64,000 bases of DNA from contig NC_135885.1 of the NCBI RefSeq assembly GCF_964194155.1, forward strand, positions 51,212,001-51,276,000, given 5' to 3'. Under the pieces are notes generated by a model that saw only the letters and a program-made list of their open reading frames with translations, was not told the origin of the DNA and ran no database searches. A program made the position numbers and the translations under genes. Positions 5,290 to 39,089 of this stretch are shown piece after piece. Numbering within the stretch: the first letter of the stretch is position 1; each line of letters begins with the position of its first letter. Origin of the DNA: Cetorhinus maximus (taxonomy: Eukaryota).

Positions 5290-6475
5290 TCACTGCATGT
5301 CGTCATCATCCCCCACGATTCTTACGGCTTTGAGGGCCTCCCGACCGCGCCTGCCTCATCTGGCCAGCAGTACGATGGCCTCACCGCCGGCATCCTCGCC
5401 TTCAAGGATATCATCGTCATCCCCTTCGATGTCGTCCTCATCAGAGGAAAAGTGCAGCTCCTCCATCTCCTCTTCAGCCAGGTTCTCCTCCTGTTGCAGC
5501 GCCAGGTTGTGGAGCGTGCAGCAAGTGACGATAATGCGTGACATCCTCTGGGGACTATATTGCAGTGCTCCACCAGACCTGTCGAGGCACCAGAACCTCA
5601 TTTTCAAAATGCCAATCATTTGCTCCACCAAAGCCCAGGTCGCGGCATGAGCCTTGTTATACCATCTCTCTGCTGCAGTCTGAGGCTGTCACACAGGCAT
5701 CATCAGTCATGTCCTCTGTGGGTAGCCCTTGTCCCCAAGGAGCCAACCCTGCAACCTCCGTGGATCCTGGAAAATGTCAGGGATCTGAGACCTGCTGAGG
5801 ATGTAGGAGTTGTGGATGCTCCCTGGGAATCATGCACAGACCTGTAGGATGTGTCTGTGGTGGTTGCACAGCAGCTGAACATTGCGGTTAATGTAGTAGA
5901 CTGCTTGTTGCCACAGAGATCTAAATGCTATGTGAGTGCAGTCGACGGCACCCTGCACCTGTGGAAAACCAGAGATCTGCACAAATCCCAGCGCTCTTGC
6001 TTCCTAGCCTTCCTGATCTCAGGCGAAATGCACAAAATTCTGTGCCTTCGCAAAGATGGTCCATGACCTCCTGGATACATTTGTGCGTAGAGACTTGCGA
6101 GATCCTGCATAGGTCACCTGTGGAGCCCTGGAAGTTGCCACTGGTGTAAAAATTGAGTGCCATGGTCACTTTCATGGTCACTGGCAGTGGATGCCCTCCA
6201 TGTCCCCGTGGTGCCAAATCCTGCAGCAGGTGGGATGACACTGGTTCTCATCATCTGCAGAAATGACAGGCACCGTCAATGGTCCCTGAGTCCAGCAAGG
6301 TGCATACAAGCGACGGCTCTCTGTGGATCTTCAGCTGAGTGTGCAGCAGGCCCTGCCGCCTCTTCATCTTGAAGGGGATGCTCCTCCCATTGCTGAGCCA
6401 TGTGCCTCCATCACTCTCTTCTTCTTCTCTGGTCTCTGTAAGCCATAAGGCATATGCTAAATCACCAGGCTCCAT
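5290..6475 (-). pseudogene. Harbinger (HARBI1-like) DDE transposase, frameshifted
   Basis: Fragments LPVTMKVTMALNFYTSGNFQGSTGDLCRISQ and VEQMIGILKMRFWCLDRSGGALQYSPQRMSRIIVTCCTLHN, with an acidic tail ending at TGA 5290. Confidence 0.9.
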
Positions 6476-8100
6476 GATCCTGATGTTGTCCTCCTGAAGG
6501 ATCAAAGAGAGAGACACATGGGTTAGCATACGTGTCCTAAGAACCTCCCTTGGTTATGTCTGAAGGCCCCTTCATGCATGCAGGAGAGTGCTGGTCACCA
6601 CTTGGATGGCCAGTGTGTAGTGCGCTCATTGGCTGTCCGAAGCCCCGCCCACCTCTGACCCACTCCACTTGACCGATTGGCGGCAGCTTTGGCCACTGGA
6701 CTGCATACGTACTCTCAGCTCAGGTGTGGGCATTCTCCTAACCTGCACTGCAAGGCTGTGCTGTTAGCTTGAAACATAATGGATTCTGGTTCAAACTTTA
6801 ATAAAGGCATTGCAAGGGGCTGTGAGCACCTCCACCAGTGATTGCTCCATAGCCAGCTTTCACAAAGGGATTCTACAACTTGCCCAATCGGCCAATTGCT
6901 TTGCTCCCCCGAAAACACACATTAATTTGCAGTCAGCGCCCGAGGGGTGAAAAGTTCTGGAGCATTTGGTGGCACCTTCATGCTTTTGCATTGCTTGAGT
7001 GGGCAGAAAAGCTTCAGAGGCCCAACTCCCAGCATGTCAATGGAGCTGCAGCTGAACGGTCTCAGCTACGGAACAATGCTCACTTTTGATAAGCTTTAAC
7101 AAGTGTGTGGCCACTTCCCCCACCCACACCTCCCCCCACACCCATGGCATGTGCTTCAGTATTTCCTTCGGTCTGTGCTGCCTTGCTCTCCACCCTCTGC
7201 CCCAGGCCTCACCTACACTGGAGCCGTTGCCCCGGCACCGAACTGAAAGCCAGCTGGGAAAAAATGAGTTGCCTATGCCCCTGCCCCCCTCCCTCCCCAC
7301 CGCACCCACCCCCGCAACCCTCCCCCCACTCCCCCACACCCCGGCTTTGAATGCGGGGCATCCCTTCCTTGATATCCTATGGGCAATGCTCATGAACCCT
7401 ACACAAGGTTGTGTGCACTCACCTCAAAGTTCATGTCGCCAGGTGCATGCCTTTTAAAGGGAGTCATGAAGCATGCCGTTCTGAAGTCACGCCGACATGG
7501 AGGGATGATTCTGGTGAGCAGGGCTTATGATGAGATGCAAATGTATTAAAATGATGTTCCTGATGAGCGGCAGGAAATGTGGCAGGCTGGTGATGGGTGG
7601 AGCAGCTGATGGCAAACTGGTTTCACAACAACGTAAAACTGATTTTTGGCCTTCTCACCATATTGTCCCCCCACTACCCACCATGATGCCCGCACCAACA
7701 GGGTCAGAAAATTCCAGCCTCAGCCTTCTTTTCCAAGTGCTCTTTTACCCGTAGCCTTACATACAATCACCACAGTAAAGATCTCATATGGACTCTGATT
7801 GAATGATGGATCATTCCTGTGAGGGGTTACTGGCTGATACCTCAGTTTTTGCAAAGAATCATACTACCCAAAGGTCATTCTAAATTTTTCCACTCTTTGA
7901 CAAGGAGAAGACTGTCAGGATTAACAGGGTGAGAAAGACAAAGATGGGAAGAGCAAAACATTATGAATGCTGGAAATCTGAAATAAGACAGCTAATACTG
8001 GAAATACACAGAATCTGTGGAGAGAAATAGAGTTAATGTTTCAGGTTGATGACCTTTCAACAGCACTGCTATTTTTTTAGAATGAAAAGCAGGGAGGATT

Positions 8101-11995: not shown

Positions 11996-12628
11996 CAAAA
12001 AAAGATAAAAGCAAAATACTGCGGATGCTTGAAATCTGAAAGAAAAACAAAATGCTGGGAAAACTCAACAGATCTGACAGCATCTGTGGAGAGAAAAACT
12101 GTTGACGTTTCGAGTCCGTATGACCCTTCTTCAGAGCTACAGAGAAGTGGAAATGTGGTTAAAGCTATGCTGCTTACCGGTGGAGCAGGTGAAGCTGGAT
12201 AGATGGTCACCTCTCCACCTATCACTGGCCCTCTATCCAGCTCTACCTGTCCCACCCCCCCCCCCCCTTAAACCAGCTTATATTTCACCTCTTTTCTATT
12301 TCTCCTTAGTTCTGTTGAAGAGTCATACAGACTCGAAACGTTAACTGTGTTCCTCTCCGCAGATGCTGCCAGACCTGCTGAGTTTTTCCAGGTATTTTTA
12401 TTTTTGTTTTGAGAGATTGACAAAGATGTCATGAACAAAAGGACAAAGGGCGTGTTAATGGTAGTAGTAAGGTACCTTTTTTAGCCCTTAACACTACCAT
12501 TAACAGTCCCTTTGTCCTTTCTCTGTAGCTTTGAAGAAGGGTCATACGGACTCGAAACGTCAACTCTGTTTTTCTCTCCACAGATGCTGTCAGGCCTGCT
12601 GAGTTTTTCCAGCATTTTCTGATTTTCT
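11996..12628. mobile_element. Penelope-like terminal-repeat insertion of four alternately oriented segments
   Basis: Segments oriented -,+,-,+ of the family ...gactcgaaacgttaactctg...cagatgctg...gagtttttccag; flanked by a 16-bp TSD with 2 mismatches (11980-11995, 12629-12644). Confidence 0.8.
12100..12138 (-). ncRNA. Minimal type-I hammerhead ribozyme motif (intact core)
   Basis: AGCU-CUGAAGA-A-GGGUC-AUACG-GACUC-GAAA-C-GUC-AACA: conserved core, 5-bp stem II, palindromic ACGU stem III, GUC triplet; stem I is weak. Confidence 0.65.
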
Positions 12629-14279
12629 TTCATCTTTGAAGCAAGTGATTTCAAAGCATTGCAACTACACGTGTAGGAAGTGTGCCCTTTGCAGTTGCCG
12701 TATCACCAAACTCAGCCTTGAAGTTATGGCATTCTCACAAGCATTAAGCTTTCTGCTTTTTAGCTTTCAATCTGGTAATAAACTCTGAAAGATGTAAGCA
12801 CTAAGATAAACCTGCTGAGTTTTTCCAGGTATTTTTGTTTTTGTTCTGAAAGATGTATGTCTAAATTAGGGTTAAGTCCTTTTAATGTTAGCAAACTGTA
12901 AATCTGCTGTAACGTGCAATCATATTCTTGCTTAGCACATGGAGCATTTCATTTCTCTCTGATGCACAGAATTCATGTACAGTGCATGGGTAATTGCCTA
13001 TAGCATTTACATTTGGTTGATTGAAGTTCCATGGGGTAGAGTACAGTTAATGATGTATATCATCTTGTTTGAGCACAATGCTTAGTGAAGTGAATTGTGA
13101 TTATTGGCTTAAGCTGTTATATTTGTTCCTTGCCTGTTTCTAATTAAGCTTTAAGTTTTCTGAGGCCAATTATTTTCTTACCTAAAAGATGTGTGTTTAT
13201 TAGCACCTGATTTCATCAGATTCTTTGACTTCTTGAGTTCAGGAAAAGTAAAAGAGGAAAATCAGGAAGCCTACATGGCAGCTAGGAACTCACACTCACA
13301 ATGCTGTCCAAAATATCTTAATGTCCTGAAAATCTGTCTGATGCTTTATTTCAGTACTTTGCTGCTTCCAAAGAAAGATAGCATAACTTCCTTTATGCTC
13401 CTTCACATTTTGCCCTGAATGAGATATACATCATCTATGAAAACAATTCCAAGTTCCACCAGGCTGACGTCGATAAAAAGCATGTCACAGCTTACAGTTT
13501 CTGTGAAAGCTGTACACAATTTGTGACTAATCCAGGGTCCATATTAGAATTTTAGGCTTGTTTGACATACCTGTGGGAAAATATAACCGAACATATAGGT
13601 ATATTTTCCTAATTGTAAGAAAACAGACAAACATAGGTCATCTCAGGAACAATTATTTTAATATTTTCATAAAGTCCAAATCAAAACTGATTTTGATTTT
13701 CTTGTAGATGAGTGAAATATACATGTTTCAGGTGAAACCATAATAAAAAGCGGATGGGTTAGCAGGTAACTGCTCTCGGTTGTTTCATTTTTCTTTAGGG
13801 CGTATAAAGTGTCTCTTTGATACACTTTGCAAGAAGAGGATACAGAAATAATATTGGTATGTATACATTTTAATGCTATAATCATTGAATACAATCACTG
13901 CGTTCACAACAAGGTTACAGCTTAATTTACTGCAGGCCATAGCTCTGCTCCAACTGTGCAGATCCTGGAGCTACTCCACGAATTGAAATCAATGTGCAGC
14001 CAGGCAGACAATGCCCATTTGGCAGTGGGTTAGGAGCAAGTACCATATGCCATCATCCAGAGTAAACTGTAGGCTCTGGACCATGAACTGACTTCAAGAC
14101 TCAAATGGCTTATTTCTCCCAGGTAGATGATTATTTCTCATGCTGGTTCTGAAGGCAGATATAGGTTTGTGCAGAAAGCAAACATTAACACTATAGGATG
14201 CAAGCAACTGAAATCACTACAGCTCAGATATTCAGGGATATCAATTATATTTTGGTAACTTCCAGGCTAGAAAATAAAA

Positions 14280-25590: not shown

Positions 25591-27578
25591 TATCAAACCC
25601 ACTTGCATCAGAATTTCATGGGTCAGCTCTTTTCCATATACATTGCAGGAGTAATTGGCACTAGTCCCTTGTAAAATGGTAGCAATGTGCTGGTGTATTT
25701 GATAATTAGAGCGTAACTATTAAAAAGCCAGCTCGGGCTGAAAATTGCGGAGTGGCTAGGGGAGCTCCAGGTAAGTAACAAAGTACTTGGTTCAATTAAT
25801 TAACTGAAAATAAGCTTGACTGGGTAGCCTAGAAAGTTCAGGGTCCCTGATGCAACAGACCATGGCAGTTTGTTTTTGTAAAAATTCACAAATACAAAGG
25901 AACACAGTAAGCCATTCACCAACTCAAGCCAGTCCTGCTATTCCATTAAATCCCAGTTGATCTGTCCATGAATTCATTTTTACTTCATTCCTTTTACTCC
26001 ACATCCCTTGATATCTCTGTACATTATTTCCTTTCCTCATGGCAGTGACTCAGAGGATATGGTATTGCTACATTGGGCACTGCCCTCTAACAACCTCAAC
26101 CAAGTGATTCTAGACATGGCCAACAGGATATTCAGCAGTGGGAGCATCATAACCAGGCACAATCTAATTATTATTTGAATTTTACAAGAGGATTTTTAAG
26201 CAGGAGCTGATAAATAACAATCAGGACCAGAAATCATAATTCACTTTTCCTTCCCAGTCCAAAAGCACTTCAGCCAATTCTTGTTATCCTTGCTACCAAG
26301 CCTGAGATCAATTGACCCCATTCTGATCAATGATTGAACCAGAGATCGTTTTGATTTAGGTAACTCAGTACCATGTTGAACAATATATTTACCCTTTAAA
26401 GTAATCAAAATTATTGATCTGCTTTTAAATAATTAATTAGGAGTTGTAATGTTCTAATTGTGCTATTACTTTCTATCTAAAAAAGCTGTTTAGTTGTTTG
26501 CAATGAGAATAGGTTCATTCAAACAACTGTCAAAGTCGATATTCATTTTAAAGGATCTAAGCTGAAAGTTAAATTCTACCGCTAGAGTTTTAAGTAAAGG
26601 GGATTTTGGCGGGGAGAAAAGAAGGCAACAAAAATAGGAAATTAAGTCCCAGTTGCACTGAGAAAACACTATGCTGACATATACAAAAGTATTTACTAAG
26701 AAGCAATCACTAAGCAATGAAAAACTACATTGAAATATGCAATCCACTATTCAAAAATCACACAAAAGATTTATAATGAGGGTCATTCATGGACTAAGTC
26801 TCATGTGGTGTCAATAATAAGTGGGAGCCAGAAGCAATACGTTATATCAGAGGTCATGACTTATCACAGCAAGTAATAGTGAGAGGGAGCATAAGATGTT
26901 TACTCAAATGAAAATGAATTCCAGAGTGCAACAATATTCTTTTCCATGATCTTTGTATTACACTTAAGCTCCATCAAATTTACTACATTTGGTTTCTTGT
27001 CTAGTTCCACTCAATACAACACAGATAAGATGGGAACTAAGTGGCGTGGGGACAGCAGTCTGCATCCCTCCACTTTGGTTCTATGCGCTAGTGTTCCAAT
27101 GCTCAACATCTCTGAACATAATGAATTTTTAAAATTCTATTAGGATTTTAATGAATTGCTGTTTCATAGTTCAATTTGTGGAAAAACACATCAATGCAAA
27201 ATGTTTCATTCATCATACAAGCAATATCAGCAACATGAGAAATATCGGAATGTCCAGGTAACATTTAAGTCCAAATGACAACTTTACACTTGTGAAAAGG
27301 GTAAATTTGACAAGGAATTTCATGCTGTTTCTACATTACAACTTCATACAATTTGGATGCAATGACAGGACATGGATTTATATAATATGCAATGGAATAG
27401 AAATTCAGCATCAAAAGGAATTTGAAAATACTTTTAACATTCAGTTTAGATAAAACTGGTATCATCTGACTTGTTTATACAAGTTAGGATTGCCAAAAAA
27501 TATGAAACAGAAGAGAGTGTGGATACGTACACTTTTATGGGTGAAAAGAGGCTGTAAATCAAGGACAAGAACCCCTCA

Positions 27579-28563
27579 TGATCGGACATGAAAACAGAGT
27601 TCTGTGTCTAAAATGGCAGCTTTGATTAGAGAAGTATGCCATAGCCAGAGCAATGATCATCAAAGTCCCTATAATATCCAGATATGCAGTTAGATTGCCA
27701 GTATCTGACAGGTCCACAGGGCAGAAAGGAGAGGAACAAAAAGGCTCGTGGTGGTGGGTGCCTTAAGGTCAAAACTTACGGAGCTAGTACTGATACACTT
27801 ATATATGGAAAATGCCCAAGATTCACATTGTTGCTTTGATCGGAGCTGCTACATTCTACTGCACGAGGATGATGCCCTCAAGGTCAAATAAGGAATTAAA
27901 AGACTAAGAATTATGCATAACGGTTTTGTTTTTAATTTGTTTGTATATTTCTTCCAACCTCAGCAAATCGTTCTCTCAAGTGACAGAAACTTTTATCTTT
28001 GTCATTGAGGAGACAGACTTACAGGATAATGGCCAAAAGGGTTATGGCACCTAATTTATTACAACTTTCATTCAAAATGTATAAAAAGTTTCCATTTAAT
28101 ATTAATATATTAATAACATTTAATGTTAAATAACATTAATATTTAATGTTAATAAAATATTAACATTTTTAATAATGTTAAAAATAGAATGATGTAATAT
28201 GTGTATTTTTTAAAGTGTGAATTAACAAGTTAAATAACATTTATTGAAATATTCAAATTGTGACTGATAATCAGAAACTCTTGATAAGAGCTACAAGACA
28301 TTATGTTCTTATGCAATTAAACCCTCCCGATAAAGACACTCAGTGGGGTCACTACTAGCCCCCTAAGCTTTGACCTTAAGGTATCCACCACCACAAGCCT
28401 CTTTGTTCCTCTCTTTTCTGCCCTTTGGACCTGTCAGATACTGGCAATCTAACTGCTTATCTGGATATTATAGGGACTTTGATGATCATTGCTCTGACTA
28501 CGGCATACTCCTCTAATCAAAGCTGCCACTTTAGACACAGAACTCTGTTTTCATGACCGATCA
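27579..28563. repeat. Long inverted repeat: 215-bp arms (27579-27793, 28349-28563) with 555-bp spacer
   Basis: Hand alignment of the left arm against the reverse complement of the right arm: ungapped, 199/215 identical. Confidence 0.95.
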
Positions 28564-29394
28564 GGAGACCATAGGCTTCTGACCTTTTCAGAGAAATGGG
28601 AAAGTTCTCCCAGGTGAAGGTAGTCTAAATAACTTATTAAATGACTATTTGAAATCAGAAACAATCTAACAGTCTCAGTTTGCATTTGTGTCTGAAATTG
28701 CTGTGTATAGCAGTTCTTTCATGAAGTTCATATGTGGAACCTAAACTGTCTCTTAAGATTTTGACACAAAATTCAGCAACATATGTATATACAATAAGCA
28801 GAGTAAATGGATATTTTGTAAATGGTTTCCATTTTATCTGACACACTGATATATATTTGGAGCTATCTTTTCACAGGATTCTTTTGAATAGTAAAGGGTA
28901 AGTGCATCTTTATTTTACATTCCAAAATCTAAGTGCCCTAGAGCATGAATACAGGTCCACAGTTCATCAATTGTTTTATTTCAGATTGCAATGCAGATAA
29001 TTACCTCTCACATTGCAATAGCAAACCATATTTCAGTTAGCTTGATTATTAGAAATGTACTTCCATAATCTTGTCTATTGCAAACCTATTTCGGCGCCAA
29101 AAACTGAGTAACATATTGGAGTTAAGGTAGTTCAAACTGCCCCACATTCATAATACACATTTACAGGGAACTAATGCCTAATCGTCAGAAATAGTTAGCA
29201 TGGATGACTTACTAGTACTAAGCATTAGAGCACAAATGCTCAATCCTAAGGATTAGGAAAATACAGATTCAATTACTCATTCTGTACTATTCCAAATACG
29301 AGTCAGACTGAATGAATTACTTAAGAGGACAAAGTTAATGAATTCATAAGAATTGTATTACTAGCCTTATCCATAGGTTTAACTAGTATAAATA

Positions 29395-33737: not shown

Positions 33738-33760
33738 TTTATTCAAACATTTGATTTATT
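33738..33760 (-). terminator. Tandem AATAAA polyadenylation signals, candidate FDX1 3' end
   Basis: tttatt on the + strand at 33738-33743 and 33755-33760, about 270-290 nt after the stop in AT-rich UTR-like sequence. Usage is unproven. Confidence 0.5.
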
Positions 33761-34026: not shown

Positions 34027-34141
34027 TCAAGAACCTGAGCCAAAGTCCTTGGTTTGTCTAGCATCAGCAACATCATTCGGTACTTCCACAATCATCCCAT
34101 CCATCCACTTCTTAAGGCAGATCTGGCAGCCCAAACGAGAC
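34027..34141 (-). CDS. FDX1: Adrenodoxin terminal coding exon 4 (115 bp to the stop); absent from the ORF track
   Basis: Hand translation after acceptor gattttcag|: (R)[40 protein letters not shown]. Contains SRLGCQ with the fourth Fe-S cysteine; phase matches exon 3. Confidence 0.96.
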
Positions 34142-38959: not shown

Positions 38960-39089
38960 CTCTCAGTGAGACCATAGGCCAGGTCCAACATATCCATTTC
39001 TTCATCAGTGATGGAATCCAATTTCTTGAAAATGGATTCTTCAAAGATTAGATGACATGTGGAACATGCCAAGGTTCCTTCACATGCAC
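38960..39089 (-). CDS. FDX1: Adrenodoxin coding exon 3 (130 bp)
   Basis: Encodes [43 protein letters not shown], with the C-x5-C-x2-C 2Fe-2S ligands and the acidic partner-binding helix. Acceptor ctaatag|, donor GAG|gtaaga. Confidence 0.97.

What the first reader, a model, noticed from the sequence alone, without database searches (positions are those of the whole stretch)
27579..28563. Ungapped 215-bp inverted repeat downstream of FDX1: candidate long hairpin RNA locus
Seen: arms are 199/215 identical with no indels, 555-bp spacer, no evident TSD, no similarity to repeats recognised in this window and no convincing ORF. Of 11 transition mismatches, 8 become G-U wobbles in a minus-strand (FDX1-sense) transcript versus 3 on the plus strand, giving a 98-bp uninterrupted duplex; on the plus strand most become A-C mismatches. 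The skew is suggestive only, given small numbers. Inference: an hpRNA/endo-siRNA precursor or ADAR substrate in an extended FDX1 3' UTR/read-through or in the convergent lncRNA; alternatively a fold-back DNA element with long TIRs.
Basis: partly seen in the sequence, partly recalled or inferred. Interest (0 to 1): 0.7.

Follow-up and report, generated by a model that had tools for sequence, protein, structure and literature searches.

The report
ADAR-edited hairpin behind shark ferredoxin gene
A single-copy 215-letter stretch is duplicated backwards about 5 kb behind a ferredoxin gene in what is likely a shark genome, and in a related species' probable RNA its two arms carry dense one-direction letter changes, so it likely folds into a long double-stranded hairpin that the enzyme ADAR edits, a well-known kind of RNA feature whose usefulness here is untested.

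Summary
The inverted repeat is real as described: 199 of 215 identical, ungapped, 555-nt spacer. It is single-copy (search control), without TSD or hammerhead core, and present in two related species. New: in a probable RNA run of organism B, 32 of 76 differences are T>C, against 8 of 56 in B's DNA (p=0.0006). Spacer and flank contigs show no excess, and one 30-nt arm stretch has 9 of 10 T read as C. This is the signature of A-to-I hyper-editing of a minus-strand (FDX1-sense) duplex; organism C gives weaker support. Caveats: contigs only, and RNA and DNA come from different individuals. Whether the RNA is a long FDX1 3' UTR or read-through is untested. Selection is not shown: the arms diverge like the flanks, the G-U skew is not significant, and similar low-copy inverted duplications occur about once per 300-600 kb here. 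There is no trans target, so hpRNA is unlikely. Cartilaginous-fish hyper-editing is published (PMC5625713), and this scan noted a like case on other DNA (e1-9064968). New member of a known kind.

The parts
27579..27793 (-). Distal (3') arm of the inverted repeat in the minus-strand RNA; 49 editable A
   Evidence: RNA? contig X15 record 1 (26937-27748) has 39 differences against 20 shared with DNA rows, the excess inferred to lie here
28349..28563 (-). Proximal (5') arm in the minus-strand RNA; 69 editable A
   Evidence: T>C-rich loose ends and short variant contigs in X15 and X17
27794..28348 (.). 555-nt single-copy spacer (loop), with an AT-rich weak palindrome at 28098-28167 and minus-strand AATAAA hexamers at 28055 and 28240
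   Evidence: X15 spacer contig has 11 differences, all 11 also in DNA run X5, so no editing excess
28415..28444 (-). Hyper-edited stretch seen in organism B: 10 of 11 T read as C (1 of them genomic in B), 0 of 19 other letters changed
   Evidence: table 7 compared by eye with the window letters printed; all 14 differences of the B DNA contig over 27687-28455 are listed rows
28518..28542 (-). T>C cluster seen in organism C: 4 of 4 T read as C, plus one G>A
   Evidence: table 7; no C DNA cover here, so genomic changes are not excluded
26954..26959 (-). Candidate distal polyadenylation hexamer (variant AATACA, preceded by UGUA, followed by a GU/U-rich tract); inferred, untested
   Evidence: Sequence; motif meanings recalled
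33738..33760 (-). Two canonical AATAAA hexamers about 270-290 nt after the FDX1 stop: likely main (short) poly(A) site, which would leave the hairpin out
   Evidence: use inferred
34027..34141 (-). Coding part of the last FDX1 exon (stop at 34027-34029; 5' edge approximate)
38962..39078 (-). FDX1 exon segment with the 2Fe-2S cysteine motif
   Evidence: adrenodoxin matches E 1e-17

Best explanation
A single-copy 215-nt segment was duplicated backwards 555 nt away, likely by a DNA copying or repair slip before three related species split, and minus-strand RNA that likely runs on from FDX1 is predicted to fold the arms into a ~200-bp duplex that ADAR likely hyper-edits. Shown: the repeat; its single copy; its presence in organisms B and C; a T>C excess in B's probable RNA, with none in spacer and flank contigs. 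Inferred: (1) origin by local template switch; (2) T>C on the plus strand is A-to-I on a minus-strand RNA; (3) FDX1 is the source (long 3' UTR isoform or read-through past the proximal poly(A) site); (4) the window's own species behaves like B; (5) editing converts A-U pairs to I-U, loosens the duplex and keeps it from being read as viral dsRNA, so the hairpin is a tolerated by-product, not a device. Odds: edited minus-strand duplex 0.85; FDX1-derived RNA 0.8; mature 3' UTR 0.5; local-duplication origin 0.7; no selected function 0.75.
For: Editing: T>C places are 32 of 76 in X15 (RNA?, B) against 8 of 56 in X5 (DNA?, B); all other classes sum to 44 and 48; Fisher p=5.7e-4. Location: spacer contig 11 differences, all 11 in DNA; right-flank contig 21 against 24 in DNA; the contig holding 170 nt of the left arm has 39 against 20 shared; five short arm contigs carry 4-8 differences per 61-77 nt. 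Loose end at 28415-28444: 9 of 10 non-genomic T changed, 0 of 19 other letters (p=1e-6). Organism C: 4 of 4 T in one arm loose end, 1 of 5 in another. Single copy: 2 matches for the arm, 3 for 2.2 kb at E<=1, all self, 24-mer with <=3 mismatches 3 hits against 3 for the control; the same search finds 678 candidates and 106 matches for a real repeat. Old and not an assembly artefact: one DNA contig each in B and C runs inner arm-spacer-inner arm; 9 of the window's 10 inner-half mismatches (arm positions 109-215) are shared with B. Common origin class: 2 low-copy local inverted duplications (279 nt at 93%, 107 nt at 86%) in 58 stretches of 10 kb. Literature: hyper-editing tracks long near-perfect duplexes within 2 kb, elephant shark included (PMC5625713, passages).
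Against: Only assembled contigs were laid; they cannot give strand, ends or level directly, and RNA status is the tool's guess. RNA and DNA runs are from different individuals (S8 against S2; S9 against S3). By class count organism C shows no clear excess (6 of 27 against 8 of 59). The places of about 24 extra T>C were not printed (60 rows hidden) and are assigned to the arms by subtraction. 2 of the 9 edited A sit 3' of G, the context ADAR disfavours (preference recalled). No silent genomic stretch was laid as a control; only spacer and flanks serve as one. No record joins the hairpin to an FDX1 exon. Long duplexes are depleted from mature mRNAs, more so non-repeat ones (PMC7006430, parts 1-2 of 5 read), which argues either against mature-UTR residence or against pure neutrality.
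Confidence: 0.65

Rival explanations
1. The hairpin is kept by selection as a regulatory part of a long FDX1 3' UTR isoform: poly(A) site choice decides whether the mRNA carries the duplex, and editing would set its nuclear retention, decay or translation.
For: Kept ungapped in three species; none of 9 indels between species falls in an arm. Pooled transitions favour G-U on the edited strand, 11 of 15. The main RNA? contig itself carries the changes. Candidate proximal and distal poly(A) signals bracket it. Non-repeat duplexes are normally purged from mRNA (PMC7006430).
Against: Arms differ from B at 7 of 322 covered places, non-arm DNA at 49 of 1971 (p=0.85). No indel is expected by chance with p=0.14-0.18. 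Pooled skew p=0.12, and two of the added pairs rest on an unseen partner base. No compensatory change was demonstrated. Transcription-linked A>G asymmetry could give the skew without selection (recalled).
Confidence: 0.15
2. It is the last relic of an extinct fold-back transposon (long terminal inverted repeats) or a Penelope-like stub; editing is incidental.
For: Arm-spacer-arm layout; Penelope fold-back stubs are reported in this genome by unchecked earlier notes; old families can fall below search sensitivity.
Against: No other copy although the arms are still 92% alike, while the search finds families at about 80%. No TSD and no CTGANGA core on either strand. No Rfam match near a gathering score.
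Confidence: 0.1
3. It is an hpRNA / endo-siRNA precursor diced into 21-23-nt RNAs that silence a target in trans.
For: A 98-bp uninterrupted duplex on the strand that appears to be transcribed.
Against: No second locus with arm similarity in the genome, so no cognate target. Dense editing would be expected to oppose dicing (recalled).
Confidence: 0.05
4. The T>C excess is polymorphism or an assembly or library artefact, and the repeat is a silent DNA scar.
For: Runs are not on record as RNA, individuals differ, and contigs are graph paths.
Against: Only one of 12 substitution classes rises, only where arms are covered, and reaches 9 of 10 T in 30 nt with no other change; a similar cluster appears in a second species and study.
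Confidence: 0.05

Closest known systems
ADAR hyper-edited long intramolecular dsRNA from nearby inverted sequences (Porath et al. 2017, PMC5625713; passages and the species table row seen)
   Same: Two reverse-complementary arms within 2 kb; clustered one-direction A>G; non-coding. Elephant shark is in that survey (200,171 unique sites, 81% in repeats).
   Different: Most published clusters lie in mobile-element repeats; these arms are single-copy.
Inverted Alu pairs in 3' UTRs, the cytoplasmic ADAR1p150 substrates (PMC13508285, abstract seen)
   Same: Edited duplex downstream of a coding sequence, plausibly in a 3' UTR.
   Different: Not SINE-derived; residence in mature mRNA not shown.
Inverted duplicated sequences purged from mRNAs, survivors heavily edited (Barak et al. 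2020, PMC7006430; abstract and parts 1-2 of 5 read)
   Same: A surviving duplex with dense editing.
   Different: At 215 nt and 92.6% it is below that paper's extreme class (>300 nt, >96%).
Short-range template-switch mutations (Walker et al. 2021, PMC7954356; abstract seen)
   Same: A local reverse-complement copy without TSD or family.
   Different: Longer than the mutation-cluster scale of that abstract; no pre-duplication allele was seen, so the mechanism is inferred.
Drosophila hpRNA endo-siRNA loci (PMC10317233; search listing and start of abstract only)
   Same: Long inverted repeat that can fold back.
   Different: No cognate target locus found; no small-RNA evidence.

Membership tests
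ADAR hyper-edited intramolecular dsRNA | Long, highly complementary arms close together | tested here: met
   215 nt, 207 of 215 paired on the minus strand, 555-nt spacer
ADAR hyper-edited intramolecular dsRNA | Clustered A>G of one direction in RNA, absent from DNA | tested here: met
   T>C 32 of 76 against 8 of 56, p=5.7e-4; 9 of 10 T in 30 nt. Organism B only, contigs only, different individuals
ADAR hyper-edited intramolecular dsRNA | Changes confined to the paired region | tested here: met
   No excess in spacer (11 of 11 shared with DNA) or right-flank contigs; excess in arm-containing contigs; partly by subtraction
ADAR hyper-edited intramolecular dsRNA | ADAR neighbour preference (G depleted 5' of the edited A) | tested here: inconclusive
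   2 of 9 edited sites have a 5' G; the one unedited site has a 5' C; read by eye; too few
ADAR hyper-edited intramolecular dsRNA | Dependence on ADAR | not testable with these tools
   Needs knock-down or inosine-specific chemistry
Inverted-repeat 3' UTR (IRAlu-like) | Arms derived from a dispersed repeat family | tested here: not met
   Single copy (control)
Inverted-repeat 3' UTR (IRAlu-like) | Lies in the mature mRNA of the upstream gene | not tested
   No record linking 29.3 kb to the FDX1 last exon was examined
hpRNA / endo-siRNA precursor | 21-23-nt siRNAs from both arms | not testable with these tools
   No small-RNA run among the 24 listed
hpRNA / endo-siRNA precursor | Cognate target locus elsewhere in the genome | tested here: not met
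   Only the two arms match; 24-mer hits at control level
Class II / fold-back / MITE element | Dispersed copies | tested here: not met
Class II / fold-back / MITE element | Target-site duplication | tested here: not met
   No direct repeat of 4 nt or more at either choice of ends; an old short TSD could have decayed
Penelope-like fold-back stub | Hammerhead core in each arm, TSD, multiple copies | tested here: not met
   No CTGANGA (motif recalled) on either strand of 27401-28750, no TSD; no Rfam hammerhead
Template-switch inverted duplication | Source and copy both local and single-copy, no TSD | tested here: met
Template-switch inverted duplication | An ancestral allele with one arm explains the junctions | not testable with these tools
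   Both related species already hold both arms; no outgroup was available

The most novel reading that the evidence does not exclude
A non-transposon hairpin, born by a copying accident, was kept across a shark lineage as an editing-controlled switch on a long FDX1 3' UTR isoform. Poly(A) choice (proximal, in the loop, or distal) decides whether the mRNA of mitochondrial ferredoxin carries a ~200-bp duplex, purifying selection allows only G-U wobble changes in the outer stem, and ADAR activity sets how much of that isoform is exported, translated or sensed.
Probability: 0.13. Interest if true: 0.65.

Novelty: new member of a known kind. Interest (0 to 1): 0.38.

Why it matters
A prediction made from sequence alone (edited duplex, minus strand) is borne out in public data from a related species. 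It adds a concrete, single-copy, uniquely mappable hyper-editing substrate in a little-studied vertebrate group, which suits measuring editing per molecule better than repeats do. It also points to local inverted duplication, besides transposons, as a frequent source of long dsRNA in this genome (roughly thousands of loci, wide interval). If the duplex sits in mature FDX1 mRNA it is an exception to the purge of non-repeat duplexes from mRNA and a test case for why some survive. As it stands no function is shown, and the class is well known.

Tried and rejected
No RNA holder listed: none of the 20 holders is on record as RNA; this blank is not used as evidence. X17 has no cover left of 27.8 kb or at 28.1-28.5 kb, and X7 none at 28.44-28.55 kb: holes prove nothing. 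X15's contig stops at 26937 without a loose end, 17 nt after the AATACA hexamer, where B DNA goes on: one study only, below even a weak hint. Contig-end symmetry suggests that B's arms share positions 9-38 and 109-138 exactly (with depth 28 against about 21 favouring left-only changes at 27619 and 27638) and that C's arms match at 126-155: graph inference, unverified, used only for the pooled skew. A 2-nt offset in X17's loose end may be a deletion in C's right arm; not checked. Rfam: 0 matches at gathering score in the window; 2 chance-level matches at E 1-2 outside the arms. Hammerhead and TSD scans were empty. No look-alike stretch in other scanned genomes. Tests for selection (skew, indels, arm against flank divergence) were all non-significant; that all six outer-stem transitions give G-U on minus is a post hoc reading and partly inferred. 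Paper searches: FDX1+UTR+A-to-I+Alu listed 6 papers, none on an FDX1 hairpin by title or abstract start; shark or elasmobranch editing searches led to PMC5625713 and PMC8659423 (passages: recoding sites only); one search found 0. Only open-licence papers were searched, and supplementary site lists of PMC5625713 were not read, so an edited FDX1 3' region may be on record there.

Full report
Observation. Eight of 11 transitions give G-U on the minus strand and 3 on the plus strand; the longest paired run is 98 bp on minus and 39 bp on plus; folding gives -500 against -474 kcal/mol (no shuffles at this length). The skew alone is not significant (p=0.23). The upstream gene is an adrenodoxin-type ferredoxin on the minus strand whose stop lies at 34027-34029, 5.46 kb from the nearer arm, with two AATAAA hexamers about 270-290 nt after it. 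That the host is a shark rests on my recall of the window's repeats and on unchecked earlier notes for this genome.

Copy number. The arm matches only itself and its partner in the 3.99-Gb genome (2 matches); 2.2 kb around it gives 3 matches at E<=1, all self; a 24-mer with up to 3 mismatches gives 3 hits (2 are the arms) against 3 for the control pattern. The tool warns that no match does not prove rarity, so I ran a positive control: a neighbouring repeat gave 678 candidates and 106 matches at about 80% identity. There is no TSD, no hammerhead core and no Rfam family. A transposon terminal-repeat pair, a Penelope stub and a trans-acting hpRNA with a cognate target are therefore not supported.

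Relatives. One search listed 24 runs, 20 of them holding part of the stretch; I laid 4 on 26900-29300. DNA? runs of organisms B and C each have one contig running inner left arm, spacer, inner right arm, so the structure is no assembly artefact and predates the splits. B differs from the window at 56 listed places of 2401. All 14 differences of B's contig over 27687-28455 are listed, which shows that 9 of the window's 10 inner-half arm mismatches are shared with B: the arms had already drifted apart before the split and were not homogenised there. Arms are not more conserved than other DNA (7 of 322 against 49 of 1971, p=0.85; the left-arm count partly rests on a contig that may merge both arms). 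None of 9 indels falls in an arm, but that is expected by chance with p=0.14-0.18, and the right arm is incompletely covered.

Editing. In X15 (organism B, guessed RNA) 32 of 76 listed places are T>C; in X5 (B, DNA?) 8 of 56; the other eleven classes sum to 44 and 48 (Fisher p=5.7e-4). The spacer contig has 11 differences, all also in DNA; the right-flank contig has 21 against 24 in DNA; the contig that includes 170 nt of the left arm has 39 against 20 shared with DNA rows, so about 19 extra, where that arm part holds 37 T. Five short arm contigs carry 4-8 differences per 61-77 nt. A loose end covering 28415-28444 reads C at 10 of 11 T, one of which is genomic in B, and changes none of 19 other letters (p=1e-6). 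In X17 (organism C, another study) one arm loose end reads C at 4 of 4 T plus one G>A and another at 1 of 5 T; C's class count shows no clear excess (6 of 27 against 8 of 59) and C DNA does not cover the first stretch. T>C on the plus strand is A>G on a minus-strand RNA, the signature of A-to-I editing (PMC5625713, passages). Limits: contigs, not reads; RNA status guessed by the tool; different individuals for RNA and DNA; 60 rows hidden, so most sites are placed by subtraction; 2 of 9 placed sites have the disfavoured 5' G; nothing is shown for the window's own species.

Which RNA. The direction of the changes points to the FDX1-sense strand, and FDX1 is the only minus-strand gene that I found upstream in the window (no full annotation was made). 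X15 contigs cover 26937-29300 in pieces. Whether they continue to the FDX1 last exon was not determined, so a long 3' UTR isoform, read-through past the proximal site and a separate transcript all remain open. A variant hexamer at 26954-26959 and canonical ones inside the spacer (28055, 28240) and right flank are candidates only; the region is AT-rich. The nearest long plus-strand frame lies about 46 kb to the left (identity not tested).

Background. In 58 stretches of 10 kb (579,600 bases, chosen by me at round coordinates on large contigs, not randomised) there were 19 inverted pairs of 100 nt or more within 2 kb; 3 of 19 reach 150 nt and 85%, 2 of 19 reach 90%, and none of those 3 has two gaps or fewer. 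Of the 9 pairs at 83% or more, 6 have repeat-derived arms and 3 had no other hit in 844 kb. Genome-wide, two of those three are low-copy (279 nt, 93%, spacer 639; 107 nt, 86%) and one has arms 99% alike in a family otherwise at most 85% alike. One such locus per 580 kb gives about 7,000 per genome (95% interval 170-38,000). The DNA feature is thus a member of a common class, most simply local template-switch copies (PMC7954356, abstract); an ungapped one is less common.

Mechanism and verdict. Most likely an old local inverted duplication lies in RNA that runs on from FDX1, folds into a ~200-bp duplex and is densely edited by ADAR, which loosens it; this fits the view that surviving long duplexes are weakly expressed or heavily edited (PMC7006430, abstract and parts 1-2 of 5). 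Selection for the structure is possible but not shown: pooling B's changes gives 11 of 15 transitions toward G-U on the edited strand (p=0.12), and transcription-linked mutation bias (recalled) could do the same. I found no paper on an FDX1 hairpin (listings only). Verdict: real, probably transcribed and edited, new member of a known kind; interest 0.38.

Noticed in passing
L024:6152-6678 (G000:C7:51292152-51292678): An ungapped 199-nt inverted copy (88%, spacer 129) sits inside one member of a high-copy repeat; other members lack the insert, and the arms are closer to each other than to them. Looks like a templated inverted insertion.
   Followed up: partly
L078:8172-9373; L056:5213-5905; L067:1-1092: Further low-copy or locally templated inverted duplications with 480-870-nt spacers; L067's arms are 99% alike and run off the fetched stretch. 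Suggests a frequent mutational class in this genome.
   Followed up: partly
window 26948-26951: Organism C DNA has loose ends on both sides here, as from a lineage-specific insertion just past the candidate distal poly(A) hexamer.
   Followed up: no
window 28055-28245: Several minus-strand AATAAA/ATTAAA hexamers lie in the loop; cleavage there would give an RNA with one arm only. May be chance in AT-rich DNA.
   Followed up: no
L008:2-1534 (+): A 511-aa open frame about 19 kb left of the window, likely the large last exon of the convergent neighbour (ARHGAP20 by recalled synteny; not tested).
   Followed up: no
window 12002-12643: Nested inverted copies of an abundant short repeat (125 nt at 89%, 133 nt at 77%).
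   Followed up: no
window 5359-6553 (-): Broken frames that resemble a Harbinger-type transposase (resemblance recalled, not scanned).
   Followed up: no
L007:4935-8275: A GC-rich tandem array of about 3 kb with long open frames on both strands.
   Followed up: no
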